64,000 bases of DNA from an uncultured virus (IMG/VR IMGVR_UViG_3300025357_000001) (IMGVR_UViG_3300025357_000001), one strand, 5' to 3'; shown: positions 17,206 through 62,832, counted from the stretch's first letter. Numbers and translations: made by a program. Notes: generated from the letters alone by a model not told the origin.

Positions 17206-17418
17206 TTAATAAAAGTTGCCGCCGCCGATTTCGTTCAGGTTCTTATCTGGACCAACTTTCTGGGATTTAGCCATCTTAGATTGGCTAGCACCGATTTTCC
17301 AGTTGTTGTCGCGATGTGAGCCAGAAGCACCATTATCGACTTTTTGATCAGGGCCACCAGCGTAGCCGGGGGTACCTGTCATTTTGTAGGCTTTTTTGTA
17401 GCCAAGTTCTTTTTCCAT
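17206..17418 (-). CDS. hypothetical protein
   Basis: ORF coupled to the portal stop. Confidence 0.55.
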   Translation of the reverse strand: MEKELGYKKAYKMTGTPGYAGGPDQKVDNGASGSHRDNNWKIGASQSKMAKSQKVGPDKNLNEIGGGNFY

Positions 17419-20576: not shown

Positions 20577-20613
20577 TATTTATACTAATGCACAAAGGTT
20601 ATATTTTTCGCCC
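20577..20613 (-). promoter_or_regulatory. phage late-class promoter
   Basis: GGGCG 20613-20609, N16, TGCATTA 20592-20586, then GTAT. Confidence 0.75.
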
Positions 20614-22058
20614 TACTGCATGTAGGGGTTGACGAATTTTTTGCCGTAGATATCATCCACGTAGCTATAGTCGCGTGGTGGCAGTGGGTCTAGTTGCAAC
20701 CAGCCGGAGTCTCGCAAAACGCGTAATGCTTGAGACAAAGAGTCCACGTAATCATCATGCCCACCCGCTTCAGGAAACGAACACACTTGACGTAAAAACC
20801 GTTTTGTCCAATCTGCAAAGTCGCCTTTTTGTTTAGGATCTTCTGGGATCCACACTTTGCCCTTAGACACCAGAGGTGCCACGATGTTTAGGCGCTGCAC
20901 TTTGTCCGCGCGCCCGGGGTTATATCCACGTACCGGTACACCAGCACCTTGGAGTTCTTGGATCAGGGAAATACCAGCGGACTTATCTTCCATAAGTAAC
21001 AGGTCCGCTTTTCGTCCTTTACCAAAATCGTTGTCCGCACCGTACACCACCTCTTTAAAGTCGTCGATTACTTTGCGTCGCAATTCTGGATAGGACAGAT
21101 GTGCATCCCAAGAGTCTAGCAGTATGACCGCGGTGCCGGCGTCTTCTTGTTCAAACACGCCCCATACTGTACAAGCAGTGGGGTCGTTCATGGTCTTTTC
21201 GCTGGTAGCCGGATCGTAACTGGCAATCACGTATTCAAGGTTTGGCGTAGGTTTAGATGCAGGCCACATGCGAAACTGTTTGCGTTTGATGATACCAGCT
21301 GACTCTGGGTCAAGGATCTCACCATAGATCTCTTGCCTGCCAATGTCGGTGCCATCGTAAGTCTCAAGCTGTTTGAAGAACGTGGCTGATAAGTTTTCTT
21401 TATTATCGTACGAGCTGGCATTAACCACGTACACATCGCCACCAACTTTACCTTCGTTAAGGTCTACAATTAATTCTTTTGGCTTGGGGGTGGTGGTAAT
21501 GATTTGCTGGACTCGCGGGATTCGCGGGTCTTTAAGGCGCAACGTGAACTGGACGCCATCGTATGCCTCGTCGAGGTACTCGAAGGCGCACAGCTCATCA
21601 AACCACGCCCCGTGGTATTGCTTACCGCGGTACCGTTCTGGCTCTGAGGCTGGGATGCCTTGGATGATGGAGCCATTGGTAAGGGTAATTTCGAAGAGGG
21701 ATTTGTTGTAGTCCCGGATAAGGCTGGGTGGGATGATATTAAGGAGTCCTGAATCGCCTTCGAAGCAGGTGGCTCGGATGTCGTTTGACGTAGGAGCTGT
21801 GACAAGCCAGCGGGTTCCGCCGTAGACCCAAGCCCTAATACCAATCCAGTGACTAGCAGTGTGCGTCTTGCCAGACCCGCGGCCTGCAAGCATAAGGAAC
21901 GTATCATATTCTCCATCTTCTGGTTCTCGTTGATGTGGTAGTGCTTGGAGGGACCATTTGATTCTCCATAGCGCCGCTTCAAGTTCGGCTTTAGGCCAGT
22001 GGGCCCGAGCTGCGGCAAACTTCTTTAAAGTCTGCTCTTGGTGTGGTGTTAAAGGCAT
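20613..22058 (-). CDS. terL: terminase large subunit
   Basis: Walker A AGRGSGKT, Walker B AWFDE, TTTP coupling motif, RNase H-like SYDPA...HDDYVD. Confidence 0.93.
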   Translation of the reverse strand: MPLTPHQEQTLKKFAAARAHWPKAELEAALWRIKWSLQALPHQREPEDGEYDTFLMLAGRGSGKTHTASHWIGIRAWVYGGTRWLVTAPTSNDIRATCFEGDSGLLNIIPPSLIRDYNKSLFEITLTNGSIIQGIPASEPERYRGKQYHGAWFDELCAFEYLDEAYDGVQFTLRLKDPRIPRVQQIITTTPKPKELIVDLNEGKVGGDVYVVNASSYDNKENLSATFFKQLETYDGTDIGRQEIYGEILDPESAGIIKRKQFRMWPASKPTPNLEYVIASYDPATSEKTMNDPTACTVWGVFEQEDAGTAVILLDSWDAHLSYPELRRKVIDDFKEVVYGADNDFGKGRKADLLLMEDKSAGISLIQELQGAGVPVRGYNPGRADKVQRLNIVAPLVSKGKVWIPEDPKQKGDFADWTKRFLRQVCSFPEAGGHDDYVDSLSQALRVLRDSGWLQLDPLPPRDYSYVDDIYGKKFVNPYMQ

Positions 22059-23032
22059 GAGATAAATCCTTCTCCAACAAGGATCGTATTGTCTTTATTT
22101 TCGGTCTCAATATGGATGCACAGTTGCGGTGCAATCTTTTCAATTGATTTAATGAAACGTCTGGCTTGGTGAACCTTTACAGGAGGCGAGACTTGGTTTC
22201 CAATCAATTTGAGCCGGCTTCTAAAATATAATGTGTAGTATTTGTAGTGGTTGTCATAATAGACTTTACTACGCATTCCCAAAGATTCCACCAATTGCTG
22301 GAGCTGTGAGATATTACTACGATTATAATCGGTAATTCGAAATGTGTCTTTGCTCACCGAATACTGCCTAGATTTGGCGTGGATAACTCCAGACAAAAAT
22401 TCCAAGCGTTGTTCAGCCGAGGAGAGCAAATAGTTGGTGGGGATGTTGGGCGCCAAAATTTGGGAATGAATTGCTGGCTCAACTTGAAACGGACGATCCC
22501 CTCTGGTATTCTTTTTAAAATCAATAATCTTGTAGCCGTGGTCTTTGAACTTGGCCCGAATGATTTCTGATAGCCCTTTTGGCTCGACCATGGTTCTGTG
22601 TTTGCCTTTGTTAAAATACCAAAAACCAAACAAGAACGGCGGTACCGGTAAATCTTGGTGGGGGAACTCCAAGGGTTTTGATGTTGGCACAGAAAACTCT
22701 AAGCGGTCGTATTTGCCAATTAAGGGGTGGGACTCCAAGGTTTCCACACGCATCGGCTTTAGCGGCCTTCTGAACTTTTTCTTGCCTTTGTATTCGTGGG
22801 TTCTTTTTCGGTACTTAGGCGTCTCTACTGGAAACCCAAGCTTACCATCGCCAGATACGGCTAAGTTGTCATTAAAGATGACGGTGTTGCATTTAGCGGG
22901 AAAGTATTCTTGAATTAGCTTAATGCGGACAGGTTTGCCTTCCCTGTCAAATACGTAGTCGCCAACACGCAATTGGTTGGCGCTTTTCCAATAATCAAGT
23001 GTTAATACTTTTTCTTTTGCTAGTATAGCCAT
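22049..23032 (-). CDS. free-standing degenerate intein-like protein (Hint plus LAGLIDADG folds)
   Basis: block-A-like start (W...QLRVGDYVFDREGKPVRI), two LAGLIDADG-position helices (LPVPPFLFGFWY; RLEFLSGVIH), intein-type C-terminus (LCIHIE...ILVGEGFISCL); no exteins. Confidence 0.7.
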   Translation of the reverse strand: MAILAKEKVLTLDYWKSANQLRVGDYVFDREGKPVRIKLIQEYFPAKCNTVIFNDNLAVSGDGKLGFPVETPKYRKRTHEYKGKKKFRRPLKPMRVETLESHPLIGKYDRLEFSVPTSKPLEFPHQDLPVPPFLFGFWYFNKGKHRTMVEPKGLSEIIRAKFKDHGYKIIDFKKNTRGDRPFQVEPAIHSQILAPNIPTNYLLSSAEQRLEFLSGVIHAKSRQYSVSKDTFRITDYNRSNISQLQQLVESLGMRSKVYYDNHYKYYTLYFRSRLKLIGNQVSPPVKVHQARRFIKSIEKIAPQLCIHIETENKDNTILVGEGFISCL

Positions 23033-23300
23033 AAAAGTTTTCGAGGACCCATTGGTCCAACCAGCGCCCTAACGGCGCCCGAATACGGTTTTCAATTTTG
23101 TGTGGGAGTTTGCGAATGTCGACCACTTCTGACACTTTTAAGCGAAACTCCAGATATTTTGCGGTTTCATGGTCCAGCACTTCGGCTGGCACATCTACGC
23201 AATCCATATGATTTGCATCACATACAATAACACGCAAACCAAGAAAATTCCTAGCCGAGTCTTCCAAGGCTCCTTTGATTTGGTATGCGTAATTACTCAT
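22995..23300 (-). CDS. hypothetical protein, probably leaderless mRNA
   Basis: likely start MSNYAY at 23300, the predicted +1 of the upstream promoter. Confidence 0.6.
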   Translation of the reverse strand: MSNYAYQIKGALEDSARNFLGLRVIVCDANHMDCVDVPAEVLDHETAKYLEFRLKVSEVVDIRKLPHKIENRIRAPLGRWLDQWVLENFYGYTSKRKSINT

Positions 23301-23336
23301 AACTATACTAATGCACAAATTCCAATATAAGAGCCC
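23300..23336 (-). promoter_or_regulatory. phage late-class promoter (GGGCT variant)
   Basis: GGGCT 23336-23332, N16, TGCATTA 23315-23309, then GTAT. Confidence 0.7.
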
Positions 23337-23349
23337 ATTTACGAAAAAT

Positions 23350-23558
23350 TGACAGGGTTGACAGGGTTGACAGGGTCTATTCCAGTTTACCCCCCGATGT
23401 AAACATATTTTTTTTAAAAGTTTTTTTAAAAAGAAGAATAAAGGGTGACTACCCTGTCAATCCTGTCAATCAAGGACTTACGAGCGATACCTCAACGAAC
23501 AATCAAGGACTTACGAGCGATACTTAAGAAAAAAATTGACAGGGTTGACAGGGTACGA
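23350..23558. repeat. iteron-type origin-like element, copy 1
   Basis: tandem TGACAGGGT repeats, AT-rich tract, inverted CCCTGTCA/TCCTGTCA repeats, then more TGACAGGGT; near-duplicate at 30300. Confidence 0.7.
23468..23523 (+). promoter_or_regulatory. direct repeat carrying two IHF consensus sites
   Basis: AATCAAGGACTTACGAGCGATAC twice (23468, 23501); AATCAAGGACTTA matches WATCAANNNNTTR. Confidence 0.65.
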
Positions 23559-23725
23559 TTTTTTACTGAGACAAAAACCTGCAAAATTCTAAAAAAAAAT
23601 TTTAGAAATTGACTTTTTTTAAGAAACAGGGGGTGTATAAAAAACTTGAGCTTTGTGGGGCCCCCCACCTCGCACCCTCCCAGAGTGTCTTAAAAGGGGG
23701 ATGCCTCTCAATCAAAATGCCCCTA

Positions 23726-23913
23726 TGCACCACATTGGTGCATTAAGTGAGTGTCTGCTCACCTATTAGGTAAGTAAGCATTCACTCACATCGCGCAGTT
23801 GGACAATGCACCACATTGGTGCATAGGTGAAGTAAGCACTCACTCACTTAGGCAGACAGGCAGACAGACGATGCACCACATTGGTGCATTGGGGCGCGCA
23901 CCATGTTGGTGCA
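23726..23913. promoter_or_regulatory. cluster of four NtrC-like boxes interleaved with SlmA-like sites
   Basis: TGCACCACATTGGTGCA at 23726, 23807, 23872; CGCACCATGTTGGTGCA at 23897; GTAAGCATTCAC 23774; GTAAGCACTCAC 23832. Confidence 0.65.
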
Positions 23914-24087
23914 TTGGCAGACTGATAGATGAGCCTATGAGATGCGCGATCATCGTGGCATCGTGGCGCATCAACTCATCAACGATCGCTCAATGTGGCG
24001 CGATCTGATAAGCCTATGAGCCAATGCGCGCGCGAATGTAGGTGTGGCGATGTGGCGATATCAAAGCACAATATCGGAAAACACAAT

Positions 24088-24122
24088 CCCCACGATCCCC
24101 ACAATCTCCCACGATCTCCCAC
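24088..24122 (-). repeat. GTGGG direct repeats (MraZ-box-like)
   Basis: CCCAC on + strand at 24089, 24098, 24108, 24118 (9/10/10 bp spacing). Confidence 0.5.
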
Positions 24123-24253
24123 AATGCGCGATCCAATTAAATGCGCCATATTAGGGTATATCCCTATATAGATTAGTGAAATTTTGCTTTATTTGAGTTT
24201 AAGATCGTGAGTGATGGCATTGTGCCATCAATTACTTATTGAAAGGAATTACC

Positions 24254-24373
24254 ATGAATTATCCAATAGTCACGATGCTTAAATACGATGGATTGATCCT
24301 CCAATATCTTAGGAATGGCGATCAACTCATGCTCATCAAAAAGCCTTATAAATCAATCAACTTGGAGGCATAA
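24254..24373 (+). CDS. small early protein (39 aa)
   Basis: GAAAGGA RBS; reads MNYPIVTMLKYDG...; not in ORF track. Confidence 0.45.
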   Translation: MNYPIVTMLKYDGLILQYLRNGDQLMLIKKPYKSINLEA

Positions 24374-24377
24374 CACC

Positions 24378-25793
24378 ATGACAATCAATGCACCATTATT
24401 GCAGTATTGGAACTCAATCCTCCCTGACTCATCAGGATCAAAGGCAATCCAATTCAGATTACATTTAAAAGATCAATATTCCCCATCAGCAAGGCGCGAT
24501 CGTCTTAATAATATGTATCGCACGATCCCATCATCTTTTGGCTCAACTCGCGCAGAAGTGAAAGCAACTCTTAAATTGATTGGCGCTAAATTGGCAGAGT
24601 TTAAGAGCGCTGGCGATGATGATGGCGCGATGGAATGGGTAAACACTTACCAGACTAAATGGCGCGATCATTTTGATAGTGCTGAGATTTTTGAGATGCT
24701 TTTCAATCGTTATTATTTTATATGCAACGATTGTAATGCACTTGAAGATCAGGATCGTGGAGGCACTTGCTATGATGACTATCAAGTGTGCGAATCATGC
24801 CTTAATGATGGATATCGTTGGAGCGATAATCGTGACACCTATATCACTCACGATGATTGGCATGAAGAAAATGATGACTATGAGGATGATGAGGAAGGCG
24901 ATTCATTCATTGGCTCATATCACTCAAGCAAAAAGCAATTAGGCAAAATTCCATCATCATTCGATCACCATAAAAAGCCTATTTATTTAGGCTTAGAATT
25001 AGAGATGGAGATAAAAGATGACTATTCTAGGAATGATAAGGCAGAGCAGTTATTGGATGCTTTAGGTGTCGCGCAGATTGATGGCAAAAATTATCAATAT
25101 GCTTTATGCGAAGGCGATGGATCATTGAATTATGGATTCGAGATGGTGACAGGATATACAGGCTTAGATACTCATGCCAAGCAACTCGAATTTTTTAAGA
25201 CACCATTTAGAGGCGCAAAAAGCCATGACACTCGCACTTGTGGTCTTCATGTGCATATCTGCAAAAGTGATATGACTATGCTCCATTGTGCCAAAATGAT
25301 CCTTTTTATCAATGAATCTGCCAATCAAAAATTGATCAGGGCAATAGCGCGCAGAGATGGACAACACTATGCCAAAATTCACAATAAAAAGGCATCTTAT
25401 GAATGGCTCAAAAATGCAAAAGATGGCTCTAAAGCATCTAGGATTCAGAGATTAAATAGTGATCGCTATGAGGCATTGAATTTTCAAAATGAGAAAACCA
25501 TTGAATTTAGGATTTTTAAGGGAACTCTGAAATATGAATCCATCATGGCATCCCTTGAGTTTACCTATGCGACATGGCACTTTTGCAGGGATACAGGCAC
25601 GAATGATCTCACCATCGAGAAATTTTTAGAATTTATCTCGATGGCAGAGAATAAAAAGCACACTCGCTTTTTGCGCCAATATCTCAAGGAAAAGGGTTTT
25701 AATCTGCCAAAAATGGGGATTGTGAAAACCAATCCACGAATCGAAAATGCCTCCATTCAATCAATGGATCAACTCGCAACATTTGAAATTTAA
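24378..25793 (+). CDS. amidoligase (COOH-NH2 ligase, Amidoligase_2-like)
   Basis: LGLELEME, DGSL...GFEMVT, TCGLHVHI, RYEALN...TIEFRIFKGTL; start after GGAGG RBS at 24378; N-terminal CxxC pairs. Confidence 0.85.
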   Translation: MTINAPLLQYWNSILPDSSGSKAIQFRLHLKDQYSPSARRDRLNNMYRTIPSSFGSTRAEVKATLKLIGAKLAEFKSAGDDDGAMEWVNTYQTKWRDHFDSAEIFEMLFNRYYFICNDCNALEDQDRGGTCYDDYQVCESCLNDGYRWSDNRDTYITHDDWHEENDDYEDDEEGDSFIGSYHSSKKQLGKIPSSFDHHKKPIYLGLELEMEIKDDYSRNDKAEQLLDALGVAQIDGKNYQYALCEGDGSLNYGFEMVTGYTGLDTHAKQLEFFKTPFRGAKSHDTRTCGLHVHICKSDMTMLHCAKMILFINESANQKLIRAIARRDGQHYAKIHNKKASYEWLKNAKDGSKASRIQRLNSDRYEALNFQNEKTIEFRIFKGTLKYESIMASLEFTYATWHFCRDTGTNDLTIEKFLEFISMAENKKHTRFLRQYLKEKGFNLPKMGIVKTNPRIENASIQSMDQLATFEI

Positions 25794-25808
25794 AAAGGAA
25801 AATTTATC

Positions 25809-26867
25809 ATGTGTTTATTAGTCACTCAGTCATCTACATCGCCAGTTTTATCTAATGATTGGCTCATGGATTTTTATTCATCAAATAGCGATGGTGTTGG
25901 TGTTATGAGCGCGATCAATGGCGATCTCATCATCCAAAAGATTTTGCCTAAATCTGCTCAAGATTTTATTGATTTTTATCATGCCAATATCAAAGGCAAA
26001 AATTGTGCTTTTCACTTACGAATGAAGACTCATGGCGATATTGATTTAGAGAATTGTCATCCCTATGAAGTATTGAATAAGGCAGATCATGGCATGGATT
26101 TATGGCTCATGCACAATGGCATTTTATCAACAGGCAATAAGGCAGATATCAGCAAGAGCGATACTTGGCACTACATTAGAGATTTTTTGAGGCCCATTTT
26201 AAGCAATAATCCTGATTATGCTTTCCATCCGTCTTTTGCTGAGATCATTGGAAAACATATCGGATCAACTAATAAATTCGTGCTAATGGATCACGATGGC
26301 AGGATCGCCACGATCAACCAATCTGCTGGGGTTTATTGGGCAGGATTATGGCTATCTAACACTTATGCTTGGAGCGCATCTAAGAGCGCGAGTGATGTGC
26401 CATGCCAAAGTGCTAAACAAGCAAAAGCACAAGCAAAAGAAAAGCCTCAAAAATATATCCCATTGGCATCGCATCCCCATGCTTACTATGATTCGCGAGT
26501 AGATGATTATTATGATGGCGAATATCGTGGAGCATCATCTTATCAATGGATTGATGGTGATGAGAATGATGGCTTTACCTATGATCAAAAATCATTTTTT
26601 GAGGATGATTTTTATTGTGCCATTGATGATCTTGAGCGCGCTCAACTCTATAAAGCATCAACACTATCATTCAGACAGGCTCAACGATTCGCCAATCAAT
26701 TCGATCAGGCATCCTTTTTTGATATTGCCTATGCTTGTGTTGATGGTGAGATTGATGAGGATCATTTTTATAGGTGCATCCATGATTTTGCTTTTGCTAG
26801 AGAGTGTTTTCCTTTTCTCAATCGCCTCTCTGATCTGTCTTATGCCAATGATGGGGAGATCGCTTAA
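25809..26867 (+). CDS. class II (Ntn) glutamine amidotransferase
   Basis: Cys2 nucleophile (MCLL), NSDGVG, HLRMKTHG, NCHPY, MHNGIL, SDT. Confidence 0.88.
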   Translation: MCLLVTQSSTSPVLSNDWLMDFYSSNSDGVGVMSAINGDLIIQKILPKSAQDFIDFYHANIKGKNCAFHLRMKTHGDIDLENCHPYEVLNKADHGMDLWLMHNGILSTGNKADISKSDTWHYIRDFLRPILSNNPDYAFHPSFAEIIGKHIGSTNKFVLMDHDGRIATINQSAGVYWAGLWLSNTYAWSASKSASDVPCQSAKQAKAQAKEKPQKYIPLASHPHAYYDSRVDDYYDGEYRGASSYQWIDGDENDGFTYDQKSFFEDDFYCAIDDLERAQLYKASTLSFRQAQRFANQFDQASFFDIAYACVDGEIDEDHFYRCIHDFAFARECFPFLNRLSDLSYANDGEIA

Positions 26868-26976
26868 TGACTGATACATCTCTAAAGTGCCCTATCTGCT
26901 CAAGGAATAAGCGATGGGGAAATAACATTATCTGCGCGAATTGTCGCTCATTTAATTAAGCATTAAAGCATCAAGC

Positions 26977-27006
26977 AAAAAAGGCGATCTCTAGGGATCG
27001 CCTTTT
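26977..27006 (+). terminator. intrinsic terminator
   Basis: AAAAAAGGCGATC-loop-GATCGCCTTTT. Confidence 0.75.
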
Positions 27007-27022
27007 CTATTTGATCGCTTTG

Positions 27023-27054
27023 AGCCTCTCTGATACCAATCAGAGAGGCTTTTT
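27023..27054 (+). terminator. second tandem intrinsic terminator
   Basis: AGCCTCTCTGAT-acca-ATCAGAGAGGCT-TTTT. Confidence 0.75.
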
Positions 27055-27183
27055 GCTTATCTGCTCTTTCACAATTAGGCTTTATTAGAGGCTCACCATT
27101 GATTTTAAATTGATGCTGATATATCAGCATATCAAAAATAATTTAATGCTCTCAGAGCCTCTAAAAAGTGCCTTAAAATTGAT

Positions 27184-27293
27184 GTGCCTATTTTTTAGGC
27201 ACTTCAAGTTAAGTGAGTAAGCACTTACTATTTTAAATTGTGAGTGAGTGCTTACTTACATCAAAATTTTGCTATGTTGCCATGCAATATAGC
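27184..27293. promoter_or_regulatory. second cluster of host-regulator-like palindromes (Fis-like, two SlmA-like, PhaR-like)
   Basis: GCCTATTTTTTAGGC 27186; GTAAGCACTTAC 27217; GTGAGTGAGTGCTTACTTAC 27240; GCTATGTTGCCATGCAATATAGC 27271. Confidence 0.6.
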
Positions 27294-27299
27294 AGGATA

Positions 27300-27393
27300 G
27301 GGGTGGGGTGTTTTAATCAATTTTTGAAACCCATCAAACTTTTGGCTCGCGAAGGGGTGGGGTGTTTCGATCCCATTTTCGAGTTGATCAAAA
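27300..27393 (+). repeat. two copies of a ~44 bp G-box repeat (third copy at 30256)
   Basis: GGGGTGGGGTGTTT..ATC..TTT.GA....TCAAA at 27300 and 27354. Confidence 0.65.
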
Positions 27394-27470
27394 TATTAGG
27401 GTAAATCCTAATATGGTAGTGTGTTTTTATTTGCGATACTGTGATTGTTGTTTACTAAAAAGGAGTTGTT

Positions 27471-27644
27471 ATGACTGATATGGAAAAACTTAAACAGGCT
27501 CAAAGCCTACTATCTGATGTCTACCATAAGTATGGTGAGTTGTGGAGTTACGATAGTGTAGTGAGTAGAAATATGTCCGTAGCTGATAGCTGTATCATTG
27601 AGGCGATGGATTCTTTAGATCAATTTGTAAAGGAGATTGTATGA
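27471..27644 (+). CDS. small early protein (57 aa)
   Basis: AAGGAG RBS, open frame MTDMEKLKQAQ... Confidence 0.55.
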   Translation: MTDMEKLKQAQSLLSDVYHKYGELWSYDSVVSRNMSVADSCIIEAMDSLDQFVKEIV

Positions 27645-27799
27645 AATACAAAATCAATTTAGCTAGAACAGAATACTATTACCAAGTGGTTGAAGTCGAT
27701 GCAGATACCGAAGAACAAGCCATTGACAAGGCATGGGATCAATCAGGTAAATGGTTGTTTGCAGATGCGGAAGAATTTACCAATGGGTGTGAAGTATGA
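27641..27799 (+). CDS. small early protein (52 aa)
   Basis: AGGAG RBS; VEVDADTEEQAIDKA motif similar to 28140..28322. Confidence 0.55.
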   Translation: MKYKINLARTEYYYQVVEVDADTEEQAIDKAWDQSGKWLFADAEEFTNGCEV

Positions 27800-27904
27800 C
27801 ACATAAGATTGAATTTAAGAACGTCAACGAGATGATTTTATGGCTTGTTGATAACAACATTGACAACATGAAGGTAGATTTAGTAATCCACTTGGAGAAA
27901 TAAT

Positions 27905-28138
27905 ATGACTGAAGTTATTAAGATTGATCGTGACACTATGATTAGCCATTTAGTTGGATCGGACATGGATCACATAGCCATGATGTCTTTTGATGATTTG
28001 ATGGAATGGCTTGAATACACTCTTACCAATGGCTTTAAAGGTTTAAAAGATCGCACCGATCAGGAATTGTTAGTGATGTATAAAAACTATGTTAGTGAAG
28101 ATGACCAAGCCGAAGTTGTTATTGAAATGGAGAGTTGA
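27905..28138 (+). CDS. small early protein
   Basis: GGAG RBS, acidic ORF in early operon. Confidence 0.6.
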   Translation: MTEVIKIDRDTMISHLVGSDMDHIAMMSFDDLMEWLEYTLTNGFKGLKDRTDQELLVMYKNYVSEDDQAEVVIEMES

Positions 28139-28139
28139 T

Positions 28140-28322
28140 ATGAAATACCAATTTGATTTGTATACCAAGTTTACAGTCCGCGTTACCATTGAGGCTGATA
28201 GCAAAGAAGATGCTGAGGAAATGGTGTGGGATATGTATAACCAAGAGCTGTTAGATCCAATGGGTGCTAACGACATCGAAACCAATACAGAATATTTAGG
28301 AGAAGTGGTATGCAACAGTTAA
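28140..28322 (+). CDS. small early protein
   Basis: start MKYQFD after GGAG RBS; VTIEADSKEDAEE motif. Confidence 0.55.
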   Translation: MKYQFDLYTKFTVRVTIEADSKEDAEEMVWDMYNQELLDPMGANDIETNTEYLGEVVCNS

Positions 28323-28546
28323 TTACGATATACGGCTTTTACAACGACACCAAAGAAAGCATTAAAAAGTTGTGCATGGTTGATAGTCGGATGAATCCAC
28401 ATCATAAGGATCATAATGCATTCATTAAAAGCCTTGAAAGCGATGATAGTGAGATTTTTTATTACTATGAACCTGATGAGCACATTTTGGGTGACAAGGG
28501 GGATTTTCATGTCTATAAATTTACGATTGAAGGAATCAAGCCATGA
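28310..28546 (+). CDS. small early protein
   Basis: AGGAG RBS, overlapping neighbours. Confidence 0.55.
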   Translation: MQQLITIYGFYNDTKESIKKLCMVDSRMNPHHKDHNAFIKSLESDDSEIFYYYEPDEHILGDKGDFHVYKFTIEGIKP

Positions 28547-28676
28547 ATGATTTTGATGGAGTTGATTTTCTAGGATTAGCCCTACTGATAGTAGTGTTAT
28601 TGTTGTGGTCAATCGGTTGCACTACCATTGGCTTTTTGATTGCTAACTTTCTTTTTTAAAAAGGTTGAATTTCACA

Positions 28677-28949
28677 ATGCGAAATGATATAATTGATGAA
28701 CTAGGTGTAATTAACAAAACAATTGCAGAACTTGAGGCAGTTGCAAGAAAGCTAAAAGCTGAGTTGATTGCTAGGGGTGTGGGTGAGTATGAGGGGTTGG
28801 CGTTCTATGCGACAGTAACCCATTATGATCGAGCCACCATTAGCCCGACACTTGTTAGGCAGTATTCCAATGAGGATTTTGTGTCATTGGTCACAGAGAT
28901 CAAACAAGTGGATTCGGTTAGTGTCAAACCCATAGAAAGGACTCTATGA
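28677..28949 (+). CDS. small early protein
   Basis: IDELG.I...IAELE...LK pattern common in phage early genes; start uncertain. Confidence 0.5.
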   Translation: MRNDIIDELGVINKTIAELEAVARKLKAELIARGVGEYEGLAFYATVTHYDRATISPTLVRQYSNEDFVSLVTEIKQVDSVSVKPIERTL

Positions 28950-29127
28950 TCAGCTTTTTTGGATGTATCCTCAGTTTCTTAGCCTTTATGGGTCTATCCC
29001 ATCAATTCAGTTTAGAGGGGTTGATGTGGTTTCTCATAGGGGTGGCGATGATAGGGCATAGGGTTGTTGGTTCGTTGTTAATTGCCGAAGGTAAAAAGGA
29101 GATCAACAACGATAAATAGGAGACGAG

Positions 29128-29703
29128 TTGAGCAATACCAACAACGACATAAAAACCGACTACATTCAAGGGTTATTCAAATACCCTCCTCTCAAAACAG
29201 AAGAAGAGCATCACCTTGCCAAGTTAATTGCGCAAGGTGATGAATCTGCACTCGAAAAATTAGTTACTCACAATCTGCCATTCGTTGTCCATTTAGTAAG
29301 TAGGATGACGGCATGGCATCATGGCAAGTTACCAATGGAAGATTTGATAGCCATTGGTAATGAGTGCCTACTTATTTCTGCAAAGCGATGGAAACCCATT
29401 GGCGATGCAGGATTCTCATCCTATGCTCGCTCCTTTATCGAAAAGGGGGTGCGTAGAGAGCTAGATAACACCTCCAATATGATCCGCTTGCCTGTCAATA
29501 TCATGCAAGCCATCCGCAAGATGAGTTACAACGAGCGCGCCTTATCACAAAGCTTAGGCCGAGAGCCGACAGTAGCCGAATTGGCCGATGCGATGGATGT
29601 GACAATCGCGCGCATCTACCAATTAAAAGGCTACATCAACCGCGAGCCGATCTCATTGGATTTGATGAATAACGAAAAACATGCAGAAGAGAAGGAAGAA
29701 TGA
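29128..29703 (+). CDS. sigma70-family sigma factor with regions 1.2, 2 and 3 but no region 4
   Basis: YPPLKTEEE..LA, KLVTHNLPFVV, EDLIAIGNECL...FSSYA, NMIRLPVN, LGREPTVAELA, PISLD then stop. Confidence 0.88.
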   Translation: MSNTNNDIKTDYIQGLFKYPPLKTEEEHHLAKLIAQGDESALEKLVTHNLPFVVHLVSRMTAWHHGKLPMEDLIAIGNECLLISAKRWKPIGDAGFSSYARSFIEKGVRRELDNTSNMIRLPVNIMQAIRKMSYNERALSQSLGREPTVAELADAMDVTIARIYQLKGYINREPISLDLMNNEKHAEEKEE

Positions 29704-30038
29704 TGGAATTTACCGCAGAACAAAAGAAAGCCTATGCCAGATACCAAAAAGCGATGGAAAACGCAGGGATCGGGCAGTATCGCCTTAAAACCAAAAAGGC
29801 ATGGATACCCCAATCGGATTATTACTGTGTGGAGGTGACGGGTTTAAACCACCCTATGTATGCAATCAATGAGCCGTATCAGGAATATAAGGAGGCATTT
29901 TCAGCATGGTTAAAAGTAGCCCCTGAGCATACCAAAACAAGGATGTCCATGATTCGTGGAGATTATGACACCCAAGACAGTTGGGAGGAGAAAAACGCTC
30001 CCATTACTAGCATTATGGCTAAATTTGAAAAGGAATGA
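29700..30038 (+). CDS. hypothetical protein
   Basis: ORF coupled to the sigma gene stop. Confidence 0.6.
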   Translation: MMEFTAEQKKAYARYQKAMENAGIGQYRLKTKKAWIPQSDYYCVEVTGLNHPMYAINEPYQEYKEAFSAWLKVAPEHTKTRMSMIRGDYDTQDSWEEKNAPITSIMAKFEKE

Positions 30039-30244: not shown

Positions 30245-30255
30245 AACAGGGGGTA

Positions 30256-30299
30256 GGGGTGGGGTGTTTTAATCCAATTTCGAAATCACTCAAACTTTT
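30256..30299 (+). repeat. third G-box repeat
   Basis: GGGGTGGGGTGTTTTAATCCAATTTCGAAATCACTCAAACTTTT. Confidence 0.65.
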
Positions 30300-30517
30300 T
30301 GACAGGATTGACAGGGTTGACAGGGTCTATTCCACTTTATCCCAGATAAATCTATTTCTTTTTTAAAAAAATTTAAAAAAATATAAAATATACCCTGTCT
30401 ACCCTGTCAACCCCGGATATTTTACTGTACTGTAGCTATCTGTAGCTAACTACACAGCTTCTGTAGCTATCTTTCAATATCGTGAGACGGGGTTGTGACA
30501 GGATTGACAGGGTACGA
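30300..30517. repeat. iteron-type replication origin, copy 2
   Basis: TGACAGG(A/G)T x3, AT-rich tract, inverted CCCTGTC x2, further TGACAGG repeats; directly upstream of the primase-helicase. Confidence 0.72.
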
Positions 30518-30592: not shown

Positions 30593-32902
30593 ATGACAAA
30601 ACCCGCCGCACTCCCAGTTCAGTTCAGTAATATTCCCGTAGAATTAAAGAAAATCCCACGTTGGGTGCTCTGGAAATTTGTAGAAGTAGGCGACGAGCAC
30701 AACAAACGCTGGTCTAAACTGCCATTTCAGCACAATGGGCAGTATGCCTCCTCCACAGACCCAAACACATGGTCTGATTTTGTGACAGTAGAGCATGCCT
30801 ACGAATCAAACCCAGACCAGTTCTCAGGCATCGGCTTCGTATTTACCACAGAGGACAATCTAGTAGGCATCGACTTAGATGACTGCTACGATGAAGAATT
30901 GGGCGGTTTCACAAATGCTGCAATGCAGCATATTGCAGATTCAGTCAACGGTTATATGGAGATCTCGCCATCAGGTACTGGGGTGAAGATTTTCACACGC
31001 ACCGAGGCTAGCACATCCCACGTAGATCACGATAAAGGTTTTGAGTTTTATCCACAGGGGCGGTATTTTACGGTGACAGGACACCGGCTCTCTGGTTCGA
31101 TTCCGGTAGATAGCCAAGATATCTCCGCGATCATCCCACAGCGCACGATCCAGCGCACTGGTGATGAGTTTGCGGACTACACACCGCCAGTTGAGGGCTA
31201 CGACATCCATCGAGTAGAGACCGAGATCCTCGCTAAGTTAGACCCCGACATGCACTACGCACAGTGGCTTAAAGTGGGCGCTATTTTGCACCACCAGTTC
31301 CAAGGTGATATTGAGGCGTGTGAGGCATGGGATCGCTGGTCACAACAAAGCGAGAAATACACATCGTCTGGTGATTACTCTTGCGAGGCCAAGTGGAAGA
31401 CATTTAAGGGATCTGGAGCCACCCTACGCTCACTCATATTTCAGATTGGTCAAAAGGAGCGCACGGATGCGCTAGCGAGAGGGGAGATTGTCCTTGATGC
31501 TGGTGCGATGAACCATGCGCGTACTTTTTTGGACTCGAAATACTCCTGCGAGGAGGGGTATGAGTTAGTGCACTACGCACAGGACTTTTACACCTATTGT
31601 GGCACTCACTACGAGATCATCGAAGAGGCCACCATTCGCTCTGAATTGTACACCCTGCTGGACAAATGCAAAAAGCCATCCAAGGGTGGGGCACTTGCGC
31701 CCTTCAACCCGAGCCCAGCTAGTGTATCCGCTGCGATGGATGCGACAAAGTCGATTGTGCACTTGCCAAACCACGCGCACACCAAACCACCGATCTGGTT
31801 AGAGTCCTATCGTGCCAACAAGCCCGATGCCTCTAAATTGATCTCACTTAAAAACGGATTGTTTCATTTAGAAGATCAGACATTGCTACCACACTCACTC
31901 GGTTTGTACACACAAAATTCGTTGCCGTTTGAGTACGACCAACAAGCACAGTGCCCTACGTGGCACCAGTTCTTAGAGTCTATTTGGGGTGATGATCAGG
32001 AGTCGATTGACTGCTTACAAGAGATGTTTGGTTACATTTTGTCAGGCGATACTCGCCAGCAGAAATTCTTCAACATCATTGGCCCACGTCGTTCCGGTAA
32101 GGGAACGATTAACAAGGTGCTAGTTGCCCTCCTAGGTCAACACAACACAGTAGCACCAGAATTAGGAGAACTCTGTGATACTTTTGGTCTGCAACCTTGG
32201 CTTGGCAAGCTCCTTGCTTCTTTTACTGATGCTCGGGCCCCTGAACGCAATCGTTCTGCTGTTGTGTCTCAGCTTCTTCGTATTGTGGGCGGTGACACTA
32301 TCACTGTTAATCGTAAGAATAAAGAGGCATGGAACGGCTATCTTCCTACACGGATAGTGATCTACTCCAACGAGGTGTTGCAGTTGACAGAGAACAGTAA
32401 TGCGCTCACTGGTCGTATGGTGGTGCTTAAAATGACACGTTCGTTCTTTGACAAGGAAGATGCAGACCTTGCGCACAAATTGGAAAAAGAGCTGTCTGGT
32501 ATTTTCAACTGGGCGATGGATGGACTCAAACGCAGGATTGCGCGCGGTGGTCACTTCTTACAACCACAGTCAGGCAAAGAGTTGCTTAAACTGATGGCTG
32601 AGTTGGGTAATCCAATCCAAAGCTTTGTGGAAGATGCGTTGATCTTTGACCCAGAAGGCACTGCACCAAAAGATGATGTGTTTGCTTGCTATCGTCACTG
32701 GGCGCTTAAAAAATCAATGAGCCCCGGAACAGAGTTGGCATTTAAACGTCGATTCTTAGCTGCGACTCAAGAATATCGCGTTGAGTCTGGTGAGGATAGA
32801 ACCAAAGGCAATCGCATCCATATCTATCGCGGCATACGCTTAAATGAAAAGGCACAAAAGCATATTGACAACAACATTTCGTTTGATGAAGAGGTATTTT
32901 GA
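30593..32902 (+). CDS. primase-helicase (AEP-like primase, PriCT-2, D5-N, SF3 helicase)
   Basis: VGIDLD, EISPSGTG, W..VG.ILH...WDRWS, Walker A GPRRSGKGT, SNE sensor. Confidence 0.9.
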   Translation: MTKPAALPVQFSNIPVELKKIPRWVLWKFVEVGDEHNKRWSKLPFQHNGQYASSTDPNTWSDFVTVEHAYESNPDQFSGIGFVFTTEDNLVGIDLDDCYDEELGGFTNAAMQHIADSVNGYMEISPSGTGVKIFTRTEASTSHVDHDKGFEFYPQGRYFTVTGHRLSGSIPVDSQDISAIIPQRTIQRTGDEFADYTPPVEGYDIHRVETEILAKLDPDMHYAQWLKVGAILHHQFQGDIEACEAWDRWSQQSEKYTSSGDYSCEAKWKTFKGSGATLRSLIFQIGQKERTDALARGEIVLDAGAMNHARTFLDSKYSCEEGYELVHYAQDFYTYCGTHYEIIEEATIRSELYTLLDKCKKPSKGGALAPFNPSPASVSAAMDATKSIVHLPNHAHTKPPIWLESYRANKPDASKLISLKNGLFHLEDQTLLPHSLGLYTQNSLPFEYDQQAQCPTWHQFLESIWGDDQESIDCLQEMFGYILSGDTRQQKFFNIIGPRRSGKGTINKVLVALLGQHNTVAPELGELCDTFGLQPWLGKLLASFTDARAPERNRSAVVSQLLRIVGGDTITVNRKNKEAWNGYLPTRIVIYSNEVLQLTENSNALTGRMVVLKMTRSFFDKEDADLAHKLEKELSGIFNWAMDGLKRRIARGGHFLQPQSGKELLKLMAELGNPIQSFVEDALIFDPEGTAPKDDVFACYRHWALKKSMSPGTELAFKRRFLAATQEYRVESGEDRTKGNRIHIYRGIRLNEKAQKHIDNNISFDEEVF

Positions 32903-36707: not shown

Positions 36708-36911
36708 ATGGTTCCATACGACAACGGTAAGGTGAAGATTGGTATCTACTATCAGCCACCAAAATACGTGGAGTATGATAGCGATATGTTACGTTTGCAA
36801 TCATTCCTAATTGGTGACCCAGACAGGCTTCGTCGTGAATACTGGTATAATGTTGCCTATAAATTAATCATATTGCTTTGTTTAATCATCATCATTCTTG
36901 TTAATAAATGA
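36708..36911 (+). CDS. hypothetical protein with C-terminal TM
   Basis: AAGGAG RBS; PYDNGKVKIG..YQPP. Confidence 0.55.
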   Translation: MVPYDNGKVKIGIYYQPPKYVEYDSDMLRLQSFLIGDPDRLRREYWYNVAYKLIILLCLIIIILVNK

Positions 36912-37732
36912 CACCTAATTTTGTAGCCGTATCAGGACTGCCAAGAGCTGGCTCAACACTACTGTGCCAGCTTCTTAGTATGCACCCAGAGATCCATTCC
37001 GAAGGGCGCTCTTCGCCTTTGCTTAACGGCATGGCGGCTATGCGCAAACAAATATCGGGCGATACGTTCTTGTTGTCGCAAATGGATAATAATTTTGGTG
37101 ATACCTACGCGCATCTTAAAAGCGCAATGACAGGATACTTGCGTTCTTGGTATCACAACAGCGGTGACAAGAAGGTAGTGATTGATAAGAACCGGGGATG
37201 GTTACAAGCCATCGAGCTTTTGACCCATCTTGCCCCCGAGGCCAAAGTGTTGGTGTGCACCAGAGAGTTAACGCAGATCATTGGTTCAATCGAGGCCCAA
37301 CACCAAAAAACTATTGCGCTTGATATGACTGAGACTGTGCCGCATAACGACAGAGTGAACAGGGCAATCGCGTGGATGGATAAGAAGGGAGTTGTCGGGA
37401 ACGCATTGATGTCAATTGATGCGCTCAGTGATTTACCTAATGAGGTCCGCGACCGAGTGTTAATTGTGCGGTTTGAGGATTTGTTAGGCGGCCCACAAAT
37501 AACCATGAGCTACATTTTTAAATGGCTTGGGTTAGATGAATATGTGATTGATGTAAATAATTTGCCAGTGATGTCTAGTGAGAGCGATAGCCACTATCGG
37601 ATGAAGTACTCGCACAAAACATCCACCGCAATCACCGCGCCCAAGTTGCACATTGTTTCAGATAGATTAAGGAAGCAGTTACGAGATAACAACGATTGGT
37701 ACTATCAACTCTACTATAAAGAATTTTTATGA
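36908..37732 (+). CDS. PAPS-dependent sulfotransferase
   Basis: 5'-PSB loop SGLPRAGSTLL, IDKNR, 3'-PB-like CTRELTQIIGS, VRFEDL. Confidence 0.85.
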   Translation: MTPNFVAVSGLPRAGSTLLCQLLSMHPEIHSEGRSSPLLNGMAAMRKQISGDTFLLSQMDNNFGDTYAHLKSAMTGYLRSWYHNSGDKKVVIDKNRGWLQAIELLTHLAPEAKVLVCTRELTQIIGSIEAQHQKTIALDMTETVPHNDRVNRAIAWMDKKGVVGNALMSIDALSDLPNEVRDRVLIVRFEDLLGGPQITMSYIFKWLGLDEYVIDVNNLPVMSSESDSHYRMKYSHKTSTAITAPKLHIVSDRLRKQLRDNNDWYYQLYYKEFL

Positions 37733-42460: not shown

Positions 42461-42771
42461 AAGACTTTAAGACATTACCTAAGATGGCATCTGGCGGTTC
42501 TGCTAAACATGACAAGCCAATTGCAAAGACAACAACTGGTAAAGGTCGTCACTATCTAAGTACCAGCGAAGGCGCTGGTATGACAGAGGCTGGTCGTAAG
42601 GCATATAACGCCAAAAACGGCAGTCATCTAAAGGCACCACAGCCTGAAGGTGGATCACGCAAAGATTCATTTTGTGCCCGTATGAGCGGCGTTAAAGGTC
42701 CAATGAAGGACGAAAATGGCAAACCAACAAGAAAAGCAGCAGCACTAAAAAGGTGGAAATGTGGTAGCTAA
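42457..42771 (+). CDS. basic protein (DUF6321-like)
   Basis: GMTEAGRKAYN...LKAP...RKDSFCARM...ALKRWKC. Confidence 0.65.
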   Translation: MKDFKTLPKMASGGSAKHDKPIAKTTTGKGRHYLSTSEGAGMTEAGRKAYNAKNGSHLKAPQPEGGSRKDSFCARMSGVKGPMKDENGKPTRKAAALKRWKCGS

Positions 42772-43156
42772 AAGGTCATCCCCAAAGAAAAAACTGTTTA
42801 CAGAGGAAATGGCAAACGTCATTTTGGAACTCGGTAAGCAGGGTGCATCCCAAAAAACGATGTATGCAGCTATTAACATCAGCAAAGCGACAGCGGCAAA
42901 ATGGAAGAAAGAAGACCCATTTTTTGCTGAAACAATGGATTTGGCCACAACTTACGGTCAAAGCTATTGGGAGATGATGATGTTAGCTAACGTCGAAAAC
43001 AAAGCTTTTAACAGCCGTATTGCCGAAATTGCCCTTCGCGGACAATACCCAGACGACTACAAAGATAACCGCGAAATCAAAGCGGAGATCAAACAAGAAA
43101 CCAAAATCGACTTTAACAAAGAAATTGCTGATTTAATTTCCGCCCTAAAAGTCTAA
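42761..43156 (+). CDS. probable terminase small subunit (HTH, P22/Sf6-like)
   Basis: VILELGKQGAS...INISKATAAKWKKEDPFFAE...YWE; under a late promoter. Confidence 0.6.
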   Translation: MVAKRSSPKKKLFTEEMANVILELGKQGASQKTMYAAINISKATAAKWKKEDPFFAETMDLATTYGQSYWEMMMLANVENKAFNSRIAEIALRGQYPDDYKDNREIKAEIKQETKIDFNKEIADLISALKV

Positions 43157-55788: not shown

Positions 55789-55789
55789 T

Positions 55790-56755: not shown

Positions 56756-56757
56756 AA

Positions 56758-57207: not shown

Positions 57208-57228
57208 TGAGTTTTTCCACTATGTTGC

Positions 57229-57265
57229 TACCTATATTAATGCAAAAAAGAGCCTTTTTACGCCC
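57229..57265 (-). promoter_or_regulatory. phage late-class promoter
   Basis: GGGCG 57265-57261, N16, TGCATTA 57244-57238, then ATAT. Confidence 0.75.
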
Positions 57266-60946: not shown

Positions 60947-60949
60947 ATA

Positions 60950-62640: not shown

Positions 62641-62643
62641 GGT

Positions 62644-62832
62644 TTACTTCTTCCGTTTTGCCATACCACCGCATTTTAACTTAGACAAATCTGTATGCTT
62701 TTTCTCATGCAATTGATCATCGTGCATTTTAAATGCCTTTTTGATCATCTGCTTGTCTTGAGCAACATCTCCGCCCTCTTTATAATGACTGCCTTCGCAC
62801 ATCATTTTAGGGTTTTGTTTAAAGTCTTTCAT
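62644..62832 (-). CDS. small virion-associated protein
   Basis: YKEGGDVAQDKQMIKKAF..HD..LH. Confidence 0.6.
   Translation of the reverse strand: MKDFKQNPKMMCEGSHYKEGGDVAQDKQMIKKAFKMHDDQLHEKKHTDLSKLKCGGMAKRKK

What the first reader, a model, noticed from the sequence alone, without database searches (positions are those of the whole stretch)
23700..27420. Arrays of host-regulator binding sites bracketing the probable first-injected segment
Seen: two non-coding zones (23.7-24.2 kb and 27.1-27.4 kb) are packed with different palindromes and repeats. Compared from memory with known consensus sites they match NtrC, SlmA, MraZ, Fis and PhaR, with an additional TAGGG-N4/5-(C/T)CCTA dyad at 24152 and 27397. 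This is more regulatory DNA than a short operon needs, and the factors have unrelated functions. Inference: a protein-free cis system in which abundant host DNA-binding proteins load on the entering genome end, to ratchet DNA in, shield it from nucleases, titrate host regulators, or sense host state. PhaR- plus SlmA-like sites would point to a betaproteobacterial host.
Basis: partly seen in the sequence, partly recalled or inferred. Interest (0 to 1): 0.85.

Follow-up and report, generated by a model that had tools for sequence, protein, structure and literature searches.

The report
Host-regulator docking sites in phage
The gene-free stretch between the early and late genes of this freshwater phage holds clusters of DNA sites identical to the known landing sites of the host's nitrogen regulator and other host regulators, so the phage probably reads or disturbs the state of its host through host proteins.

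Summary
The window is a virulent-looking phage. The region 23.3-24.25 kb is its single divergent non-coding region, between the terminase/late genes and the early genes. The repeats are real and non-random. Four palindromes fit the published NtrC consensus TGCACCAnnnTGGTGCA (5 matches against 0.38 expected). Three sites fit the measured SlmA degeneracy GTRAGYRCTYAC (3 against 0.06). A run of four GTGGG repeats at 9-10 bp resembles MraZ boxes. The PhaR match fails a published pattern, and Fis is untestable.

The main new evidence comes from relatives. In 33 dereplicated related phages, NtrC-type sites lie only in this zone (53 sites in 23 phages, none in 403 kb outside). The core never changes while the flanks diverge. 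Relatives add Fur boxes, sigma-54-like motifs and PhaR-type palindromes in varying combinations. In contrast, an iteron/AT-rich module (23.34-23.56 kb, repeated at 30.3 kb before the primase gene) differs between lineages, so a phage protein probably binds it.

Best reading: a phage control region where host global regulators dock. This resembles the Spo0A sites of phage phi29. Nothing shows that the segment is injected first. A betaproteobacterial host gets weak support.

The parts
23303..23315 (-). Promoter-like box TGCATTAGTATAG directly before the first late gene (start codon read at about 23300)
   Evidence: One of 8 matches with at most 1 mismatch (14 matches at up to 2 mismatches against 8.42 expected). 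By my comparison with the ORF list, these 8 lie before genes and on the strand of the neighbouring genes
23349..23375 (+). Three tandem iterons TTGACAGGG
   Evidence: the same arrangement recurs at 30299-30325
23401..23440 (.). AT-rich tract between the iteron sets
   Evidence: A/T-run words are present in 29-33 of 33 related zones
23452..23469 (-). Two inverted iterons
23468..23513 (+). Two copies of AATCAAGGACTTA inside a 33-bp direct repeat. They fit the IHF consensus WATCAANNNNTTR, which is recalled
   Evidence: the window count is not significant: 8 against 4.65; the motif is present in 20 of 33 related zones
23536..23553 (+). Two further iterons closing the module
23609..23641 (+). TTGACT, 21 nt, then a TATAAA box. 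It is conserved in relatives, but the spacing is not canonical for sigma-70
   Evidence: the promoter scan does not report it
23644..23722 (+). Conserved block ACTTGAG..TGGGGCCCC..AAAAGGGGGAT..GCCCC, function unknown
   Evidence: Alignment of 16 relatives with no compensatory pairs; GGGGCCCC occurs in 21 of 33 zones
23726..23913 (.). Four NtrC-type palindromes (23726-42, 23807-23, 23872-88, 23897-913)
   Evidence: conserved in relatives
23747..23843 (.). SlmA-type site GTAAGCACTCAC at 23832-43, plus looser relatives at 23747-62 and 23774-89
24089..24122 (-). Four GTGGG direct repeats at 9-10 bp (MraZ-box-like)
   Evidence: arrays in 8 of 33 related zones and none outside
24151..24166 (+). Dyad TTAGGGTATATCCCTA before the first early operon
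   Evidence: in the betaproteobacterial bin the dyad is found only on a phage contig
24254..26960 (+). Cassette of a small ORF, Amidoligase_2 protein, class-II amidotransferase-like protein and another small ORF; variable among relatives
26979..27051 (+). Two terminator-like hairpins ending the cassette
27217..27255 (.). Inverted pair of SlmA-type sites GTAAGCACTTAC and GTGAGTGCTTAC
27272..27296 (.). Palindrome TGCTATGTTGC-CAT-GCAATATAGCA, one position off the published PhaR pattern
27299..27397 (+). Two copies of a 45-nt G-rich repeat (GGGGTGGGGTG...), with a third copy at about 30254
27396..27410 (+). Second dyad TTAGGGTAAATCCTA before the next operon
30299..30512 (+). Second iteron/AT-rich module, directly before the primase-helicase gene (30593-32902)
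   Evidence: same placement and co-varying iterons in relatives

Best explanation
The stretch 23.3-24.25 kb is the phage's main control region. It is the only divergent gene-free zone, lying between the late (terminase/structural) operon and the early genes. It has two kinds of parts.

(1) A phage-specific module: iterons, an AT-rich tract and IHF-type sites. It is repeated before the primase-helicase gene. It is probably an origin-type element bound by a phage protein.

(2) An array of operator-like sites of fixed sequence that equal the known sites of host global regulators. These are four NtrC sites, SlmA-type sites and MraZ-box-like repeats here. Relatives also carry Fur boxes, PhaR-type palindromes and sigma-54-like motifs.

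The inferred mechanism is that host regulators dock on the phage DNA between the origin-like module and the early genes. There they couple early transcription and/or replication to host state (nitrogen first of all), as Spo0A does on phage phi29. I put docking of host proteins at about 0.55. Given docking, gating is about twice as likely as pure titration.

Shown: the sites, their excess over chance, their confinement to non-coding DNA, and their conservation. Inferred: which proteins bind and what follows from binding.
For: Exact NtrC consensus, four times, found only here in 64 kb. The published consensus was seen in a passage.

Of 46 related loci with at least 2600 bp upstream of the terminase gene, 36 carry at least one site 1000-2600 bp upstream. 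In 33 dereplicated relatives, 23 have 53 sites in the zone and there are 0 in 403 kb outside it.

There are 65 distinct site variants. At positions my search did not fix, A appears in 63 of 65 and T in 58 of 65, as in the published consensus. The three central bases and the flanks vary.

Sites are near-perfect or absent. Eight of 33 lineages have none even at 3 mismatches.

The iterons change between lineages while the NtrC-type sites do not.

Sigma-54-like motifs, from the partner system of NtrC, occur in the same zone in 9 of 33 relatives.

Five variants (7 loci) place the palindrome directly against the conserved TATA box.

No Fis-, TetR-, MraZ-, Fur- or PhaR-type domain was found in 104 of the 105 ORFs of at least 45 aa that were scanned.

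Clusters of the same palindrome occur in viral contigs that show no similarity to this clade's control zones and lack its terS-like and 327-aa proteins. They sit beside a terminase, head genes or an endolysin.

The betaproteobacterial bin holding three related phage contigs has glnA-ntrB-ntrC with TGCACTATAATGGTGCA about 90 bp before glnA. Its mraZ is preceded by AAAGTGGGAG/AAAGTGTGAA/AAAGTGGGG.

For scale, E. coli K-12 has 12 core NtrC-type palindromes and 5 GTRAGYRCTYAC sites in 4.64 Mb. This phage has 4 and 3 in 64 kb.
Against: No binding was tested.

The window has no sigma-54 promoter in the zone (no match of 8 of 11 or better with GG/GC), so NtrC could not act in its classical way here. 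In relatives the sigma-54-like motifs often form halves of long palindromes or abut NtrC sites, which is not normal promoter geometry.

The bin's chromosome shows no excess of SlmA-type sites (2 in 3.1 Mb). E. coli shows that this test has little power.

The phage's MraZ-like units differ from the bin's own boxes at 2 of 10 positions.

The PhaR match fails here. The IHF count is not significant in the window.

Several conserved motifs (the dyad, the GGGGCCCC block, CACAATGTGGAATG) match no regulator I know. I looked for matches after seeing the repeats, which inflates coincidence.

Many small phage ORFs have no known fold, and one (42761-43156) has weak HTH hits (E 0.04-0.06).

The host is unknown.
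Confidence: 0.5

Rival explanations
1. Regulator sponge. The same host proteins bind, but the purpose is titration. Replicating phage DNA, carrying sites stronger than the host's own, drains NtrC, SlmA, MraZ (and Fur or PhaR in relatives) and so re-sets host regulons without a phage protein.
For: Sites are at or nearer the consensus than the glnA site of the candidate host bin. They come in multiple copies, up to 7 in one relative (L190), and as tandem runs of a PhaR-type unit (L061, L030). The geometry ignores promoter rules. The site families vary in mix between lineages. Decoy arrays of transcription-factor sites that sequester a factor are described in yeast (PMC3322331; title and start of abstract only).
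Against: There are only 4 NtrC-type and 3 SlmA-type sites per genome. No copy-number or expression data exist. In some relatives the site sits exactly against a conserved TATA box, which looks like an operator.
Confidence: 0.2
2. Phage-encoded (or unknown) proteins bind these palindromes. The likeness to host consensus sites is coincidence or mimicry.
For: About 60 small ORFs have no family. The dyad is found only on phage DNA in the candidate host bin. The iterons clearly belong to a phage factor. The motif matches were sought after the fact.
Against: The sequence stays invariant across lineages whose phage-specific sites diverge. No early-gene cluster goes with the NtrC sites in 20 loci, although the test has low power and kinship is a confounder. 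The same palindrome clusters occur in viral contigs that share no detected similarity with this clade. Several independent perfect matches (NtrC here; sigma-54 motifs and Fur boxes in relatives; SlmA under its measured degeneracy) make a joint coincidence unlikely.
Confidence: 0.22
3. One reading: host proteins load on the first-entering genome end to ratchet DNA in or shield it.
For: The zone adjoins the terminase genes, where genome ends often lie. One contig of the same phage ends inside the GGGGCCCC block (L002). Earlier notes of this scan report Fur-box arrays near the ends of coliphages (unchecked).
Against: No terminus was mapped. Contig ends are scattered and about 11 of 28 fall in repeats. 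The window and L003 read straight through. The cassette between zones A and B is not conserved.
Confidence: 0.06
4. Packaging signal: the palindromes or iterons are pac/cos recognition sites of the small terminase.
For: The position is upstream of the terminase genes. The layout of iterons, IHF site and inverted iterons recalls lambda cosB (recalled).
Against: Eight of 33 lineages lack the palindromes but keep the terminase genes. The identity of the 101-aa first late protein does not follow iteron type (same type 62.6% against different type 55.9%; window against L053, same iteron, 54%). A second full module lies before the primase gene.
Confidence: 0.05

Closest known systems
Spo0A boxes of Bacillus phages phi29 and Nf (PMC2731898; abstract read)
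   Same: A lytic phage carries sites for a host global regulator at its early promoters and origins. Binding represses transcription and replication initiation. The number and place of sites differ between related phages.
   Different: Here several regulators appear to be involved (NtrC, SlmA-type, MraZ-like; Fur, PhaR and sigma-54 motifs in relatives), packed into one ~1-kb zone. The host is Gram-negative and binding is untested.
NtrC upstream sites of sigma-54 promoters such as glnAp2 (consensus from a PMC8743547 passage)
   Same: The same 17-bp dyad, in clusters.
   Different: The window has no sigma-54 promoter in range. Centre-to-centre spacings of 81, 65 and 25 bp differ from the 32 bp of glnAp2 (recalled).
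SlmA-binding sequences of the E. coli chromosome (PMC3020112; passages)
   Same: All three sites satisfy G, T, purine, A, G, pyrimidine and its mirror.
   Different: They lie on phage DNA at about 40 times the density seen in E. coli K-12. The consequence is unknown.
MraZ boxes before mraZ (PMC8475190; passages)
   Same: A series of direct repeats with a GTG[G/T] core at about 10 bp. The candidate host bin has three such boxes before mraZ.
   Different: The phage units read ATT/ATC-GTGGG rather than AAAGTGGG, and they are not before a dcw gene.
Iteron origins next to primase-helicase genes (SaPI ori; P4 ori and crr) - recalled, not looked up
   Same: Two iteron sets flank an AT-rich tract. There is a copy next to the primase-helicase gene and a second copy kilobases away. 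The iteron sequence is lineage-specific.
   Different: The binder is unidentified and replication function is untested.
Injection-stop region of phage T5 with repeats and host-protein boxes - recalled; also notes e1-191369 and e1-307908 of this scan (unchecked)
   Same: Gene-free, repeat-rich DNA with sites resembling host regulator sites.
   Different: No evidence here that the zone is terminal or stops injection.

Membership tests
NtrC (NR-I) binding sites | 17-bp dyad TGCACCA-N3-TGGTGCA | tested here: met
   3 perfect and 1 one-mismatch site; 0 of 100 shuffles reach the count; consensus from PMC8743547
NtrC (NR-I) binding sites | Two or more sites close together, allowing oligomer formation | tested here: met
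   Four sites within 188 bp; 1-4 per zone in relatives
NtrC (NR-I) binding sites | A sigma-54 promoter (GG-N10-GC) within reach | tested here: not met
   No match of 8 of 11 or better in 23300-24300 on either strand; present in 9 of 33 relatives
NtrC (NR-I) binding sites | Bound by NtrC | not testable with these tools
   Needs EMSA, footprinting or ChIP
SlmA-binding sequence | 12-bp palindrome GTRAGY-RCTYAC (measured tolerance) | tested here: met
   3 sites against 0.06 expected; specificity from PMC3020112
SlmA-binding sequence | Host encodes SlmA and uses such sites | tested here: inconclusive
   The candidate bin has SlmA (277 bits, cut-off 120) but only 2 sites in 3.1 Mb. E. coli K-12 itself has only 5
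MraZ boxes | Three or more direct repeats with a GTG[G/T] core at about 10 bp | tested here: met
   Four repeats at 9-10 bp
MraZ boxes | Full box as in the host's own mraZ operator | tested here: inconclusive
   8 of 10 positions shared with the bin's AAAGTGGGAG; that this bin is the host is unproven
PhaR operators | YGCR-N-YGCR with AT-rich arms (PMC12542648) | tested here: not met
   0 hits in zones A and B; 11 sites in the zones of 10 of 33 relatives, a 9-fold excess
Fis sites | Degenerate 15-bp consensus | not testable with these tools
   Too degenerate; no matrix at hand
Iteron-type replication origin | Iteron sets flanking an AT-rich tract, next to an initiator gene, with lineage-specific sequence | tested here: met
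Iteron-type replication origin | Supports replication and is bound by the initiator | not testable with these tools
   Needs plasmid or 2D-gel assays
Terminal or first-injected control DNA (T5-like) | Lies at a physical genome end | tested here: inconclusive
   Only contigs of runs are held; contig ends are scattered

The most novel reading that the evidence does not exclude
A widespread clade of freshwater phages carries a modular, exchangeable 'docking platform' of consensus sites for half a dozen host global regulators (nitrogen, iron, carbon storage, division). As the DNA replicates, the platform soaks these regulators up and re-programs host metabolism and division without any phage protein.
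Probability: 0.15. Interest if true: 0.85.

Novelty: new variant of a known kind. Interest (0 to 1): 0.62.

Why it matters
Host-regulator sites on lytic phage DNA are known for single factors, such as Spo0A on phi29. Here a whole clade shows an interchangeable set of perfect sites for several unrelated host regulators in one ~1-kb zone. The clade has at least 575 related stretches in the viral collection.

If binding is real, these uncultured phages read, or blunt, the nitrogen, iron, storage-carbon and division signals of abundant freshwater bacteria. The site repertoire would become a sequence-only clue to host identity and to the conditions that favour infection. It is directly testable with purified regulators and synthetic DNA.

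My literature searches (listings only) showed no description of NtrC-site arrays on phage genomes.

Tried and rejected
- Nucleotide search of the phage collection with 22000-29900: no match.
- Rfam at E up to 1: nothing near any gathering score. No tRNA genes.
- RNA-hairpin reading of the palindromes and of the conserved block: no compensatory pairs in 16 relatives. Near-variants of the palindrome (2-3 mismatches) are few, and the core itself was fixed by my search.
- Sigma-54 promoter in the window's zone: none.
- Sigma-70 scan: 12 sites against 15.5 expected, with none in front of the early operon.
- SlmA as the bare 12-mer at up to 2 mismatches: not significant.
- IHF count in the window: not significant.
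- PhaR pattern: no hit in the zones.
- Cognate phage regulator sought by Pfam in 104 of the 105 ORFs: only the sigma factor and weak HTH hits in 42761-43156.
- Association of early-gene clusters with motifs in 20 loci: nothing for NtrC. The other hits follow kinship.
- Small-terminase/pac reading: rejected.
- Fixed terminus from contig ends: rejected, because the ends are scattered.
- Distant relative MW202545.1: none of the motifs in the 17 kb examined.
- Sequencing runs: 22 DNA holders, all kept as contigs; no RNA holder listed.
- Whole genome of the window: none held.
- Earlier notes of this scan by place and by sequence: nothing.


Full report
**What the window is.** The 64-kb window is a tailed phage. 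A large terminase (20613-22058), a portal-like protein (17418-20279) and a capsid protein lie on the minus strand. So do the tail and adaptor genes at 50967-63961. A sigma-70-family factor (29128-29703), a D5/PriCT primase-helicase (30593-32902), a ribonucleotide reductase and a family A polymerase lie on the plus strand. No integrase or repressor family was detected. The late genes run leftward from about 23300 and the early genes rightward from 24254. The stretch 23319-24253 is therefore the only divergent gene-free zone. No nucleotide match exists in the phage collection. The terminase is 54% identical to that of an uncultured phage and about 43% to Caulobacter phages. The viral collection holds at least 575 stretches encoding a relative of this terminase. 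The 80 kept are 86-100% identical to it.

- Four palindromes at 23726, 23807, 23872 and 23897 fit TGCACCAnnnTGGTGCA, quoted as the NtrC consensus in PMC8743547 (passage). There are 5 matches at up to 2 mismatches against 0.38 expected, and 0 of 100 shuffles reach that count. The core GCACC-N5-GGTGC occurs nowhere else in the window.
- The SlmA claim is not significant against the bare 12-mer (3 against 1.86). PMC3020112 (passages) reports that position 3 takes any purine and position 6 any pyrimidine. The resulting pattern GTRAGYRCTYAC gives 3 sites (23832, 27217, 27244) against 0.06 expected.
- Four GTGGG repeats at 9-10 bp on the minus strand of 24089-24122 are unmatched in shuffles.
- The dyad at 24151 and 27396 is real.
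- The published PhaR pattern (PMC12542648) hits neither zone.
- Fis cannot be tested.

**What relatives show.** I oriented 80 related loci on the terminase gene. Of 46 with at least 2600 bp upstream, 36 carry at least one NtrC-type core 1000-2600 bp upstream. No such core was found anywhere else in any locus. After dereplication to 33 zones (window included), 23 hold 53 sites, against 0 in 403 kb outside the zone.

The 106 sites fall into 65 distinct 31-mers. At the two positions my search did not fix, A occurs in 63 of 65 and T in 58 of 65, as the published consensus requires. The three central bases and the flanks vary freely. Sites are either within one mismatch of the consensus or absent. 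Eight of 33 lineages have none even at three mismatches.

Other families are also concentrated in the zone:

| Family | Zones with it (of 33) | Sites in zones | Sites outside |
|---|---|---|---|
| GTRAGYRCTYAC (SlmA-type) | 14 | 27 | 5 |
| Three or more GTGGG repeats (MraZ-like) | 8 | 10 | 0 |
| Dyad | 19 | 34 | 14 |
| AATCAAnnACTTA (fits the recalled IHF consensus) | 20 | 31 | 14 |

Relatives also carry families the window lacks:
- Fur boxes of the 7-1-7 form, in 10 zones. The classical box and the 7-1-7 model are described in PMC7536154.
- Sigma-54-like TGGCAY-N5-YTGC motifs, in 9 zones.
- PhaR-pattern palindromes, 11 sites in 10 zones, a 9-fold excess over the outside.

The combinations differ from lineage to lineage (table).

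**Two classes of site.** Next to the late operon lies a module of three direct iterons (TTGACAGGG), an AT-rich tract, two inverted iterons, two IHF-type sites and two more iterons (23344-23555). The same module recurs at 30299-30512, directly before the primase-helicase gene. Relatives keep this architecture and both positions, but the iteron sequence changes between lineages, and it changes in both modules together. That is the signature of a phage-encoded binder.

Identity of the 101-aa first late protein does not follow iteron type. I therefore favour an origin-type element served by another protein, perhaps the primase-helicase. This is inference.

The NtrC-type sites behave in the opposite way. 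Their sequence is constant across the same lineages, as expected if the binder is a host protein of fixed specificity. The dyad is conserved too, but in the candidate host bin it occurs only on a phage contig. It is probably a phage-factor site.

**Phage or host binder?**
- Pfam scans of 104 of the 105 ORFs of at least 45 aa found no Fis-type, TetR, MraZ, Fur or PhaR domain. Only the sigma factor and weak HTH hits in 42761-43156 turned up.
- No early-gene cluster goes with the NtrC sites in 20 loci, though the power of that test is low.
- A scan of the viral collection for the 17-mer stopped at 120 stretches. Besides this clade it returned clusters in contigs that show no similarity to the clade's control zones and lack its terS-like and 327-aa proteins. 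They lie beside a terminase (L191), between head genes (L125) and beside an endolysin (L184).

A shared host factor explains this more simply than a shared phage factor.

**Candidate host.** Three related phage contigs lie in one bin titled 'uncultured beta proteobacterium'. Eight of the bin's 11 core palindromes are on those contigs. The rest of the bin encodes:
- RpoN.
- SlmA, above the curated cut-off.
- PhaR.
- MraZ.
- A glnA-ntrB-ntrC operon, with TGCACTATAATGGTGCA about 90 bp before glnA.
- Three AAAGTG[G/T] boxes at 10 bp before mraZ. This is the form described for MraZ in PMC8475190.

Co-binning is weak evidence for a host. The bin has only 2 SlmA-type sites, but E. coli K-12 has only 5, so that test has little power. 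For scale, E. coli K-12 has 12 NtrC-type cores in 4.64 Mb.

**How it probably works.** Host regulators dock on the DNA between the origin-like module and the early genes. In seven relatives (five variants) the NtrC-type palindrome lies directly against the conserved TATA box, like an operator. The window has no sigma-54 promoter in the zone. Any NtrC effect here would therefore be repression, a roadblock, looping or titration.

NtrC proteins acting at sigma-70 promoters are reported (passages of bioRxiv 10.1101/2023.06.06.543975). The closest precedent is phi29, where host Spo0A sites repress early promoters and replication, and where related phages differ in their sites (PMC2731898 abstract).

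Titration is the main alternative. Consensus-strength sites, multiple copies and disregard for promoter geometry fit it.

**What is not supported.** Nothing places a genome end here. Runs are held only as contigs. The 28 related contigs that end 1200-2800 bp upstream of the terminase gene stop at scattered places, about 11 of them inside repeats. Zone B follows an amidoligase/amidotransferase cassette with its own terminators. Only a few relatives carry that cassette, so the 'bracket' is a cassette insertion with a repeated dyad.

**Verdict.** The finding is a new variant of a known kind. Earlier unchecked notes of this scan describe Fur-box and marbox arrays in coliphages, which suggests the theme is wider.

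Noticed in passing
window 23344-23555 and 30299-30512: Duplicated iteron/AT-rich module. One copy lies beside the first late gene and one directly before the primase-helicase gene. The iteron sequence is lineage-specific and co-varies between the two copies in relatives. Probably an origin-type element.
   Followed up: partly
window 13217, 17166, 20580, 23303, 57232 (minus strand); 30557, 41917, 43210 (plus strand): Box TGCATTAnTATA(G/A/T) at eight places, on the strand of the local genes; by my comparison with the ORF list they lie before genes. It may be the promoter type of the phage's own sigma factor.
   Followed up: partly
window 23644-23722: Conserved block with GGGGCCCC after a TATAAA box, present in 21 of 33 relatives. 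There is no RNA covariation. One contig of the same phage ends inside it (L002). Function unknown.
   Followed up: partly
window 22049-23032 (minus strand): 327-aa ORF overlapping the start of the large terminase gene. It hits a terminase PHROG (E 8e-10) and has weak homing-endonuclease domain hits (E 0.026). It diverges far more among relatives (44-59%) than the terminase (86-91%).
   Followed up: no
window 29128-30038: The sigma factor ORF shows regions 1.2, 2 and 3 only. No region 4 was detected. The next ORF (112 aa, conserved in relatives) has only a weak Crl-like hit (E 0.011).
   Followed up: no
window 24315-26867: Amidoligase_2 protein plus a class-II glutamine-amidotransferase-like protein form a terminated cassette right after the NtrC-type sites. 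The cassette is present in only a few relatives.
   Followed up: partly
window 36908-37732 and 45839-46672: A sulfotransferase-family gene and an APS-kinase/KTI12-like P-loop gene in the replication arm.
   Followed up: no
window 27299-27397 and about 30254-30298: Three copies of a 45-nt G-rich repeat (GGGGTGGGGTG...AAACTTTT), all reading toward early genes. A shorter relative precedes the TATAAA box at 23629.
   Followed up: no
related loci, e.g. L074, L058, L013 (Fur boxes); L013, L037, L079, L081 (sigma-54-like motifs): Relatives carry perfect 7-1-7 Fur boxes and perfect TGGCACG-N4-TTGC motifs in the same zone. The latter are often paired head to head as a 33-bp palindrome or abut an NtrC-type site.
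   Followed up: partly
L125, L184, L191 (viral contigs): Clusters of two NtrC-type palindromes in viral contigs that lack this clade's zone sequences and marker proteins: between head genes, beside an endolysin, and 550 bp before a terminase gene.
   Followed up: partly
L061 and L030 (contig ends): Tandem runs of a 16-bp unit GGTGCGGTGCAACAAT, which contains a PhaR-type core, next to NtrC-type sites.
   Followed up: no
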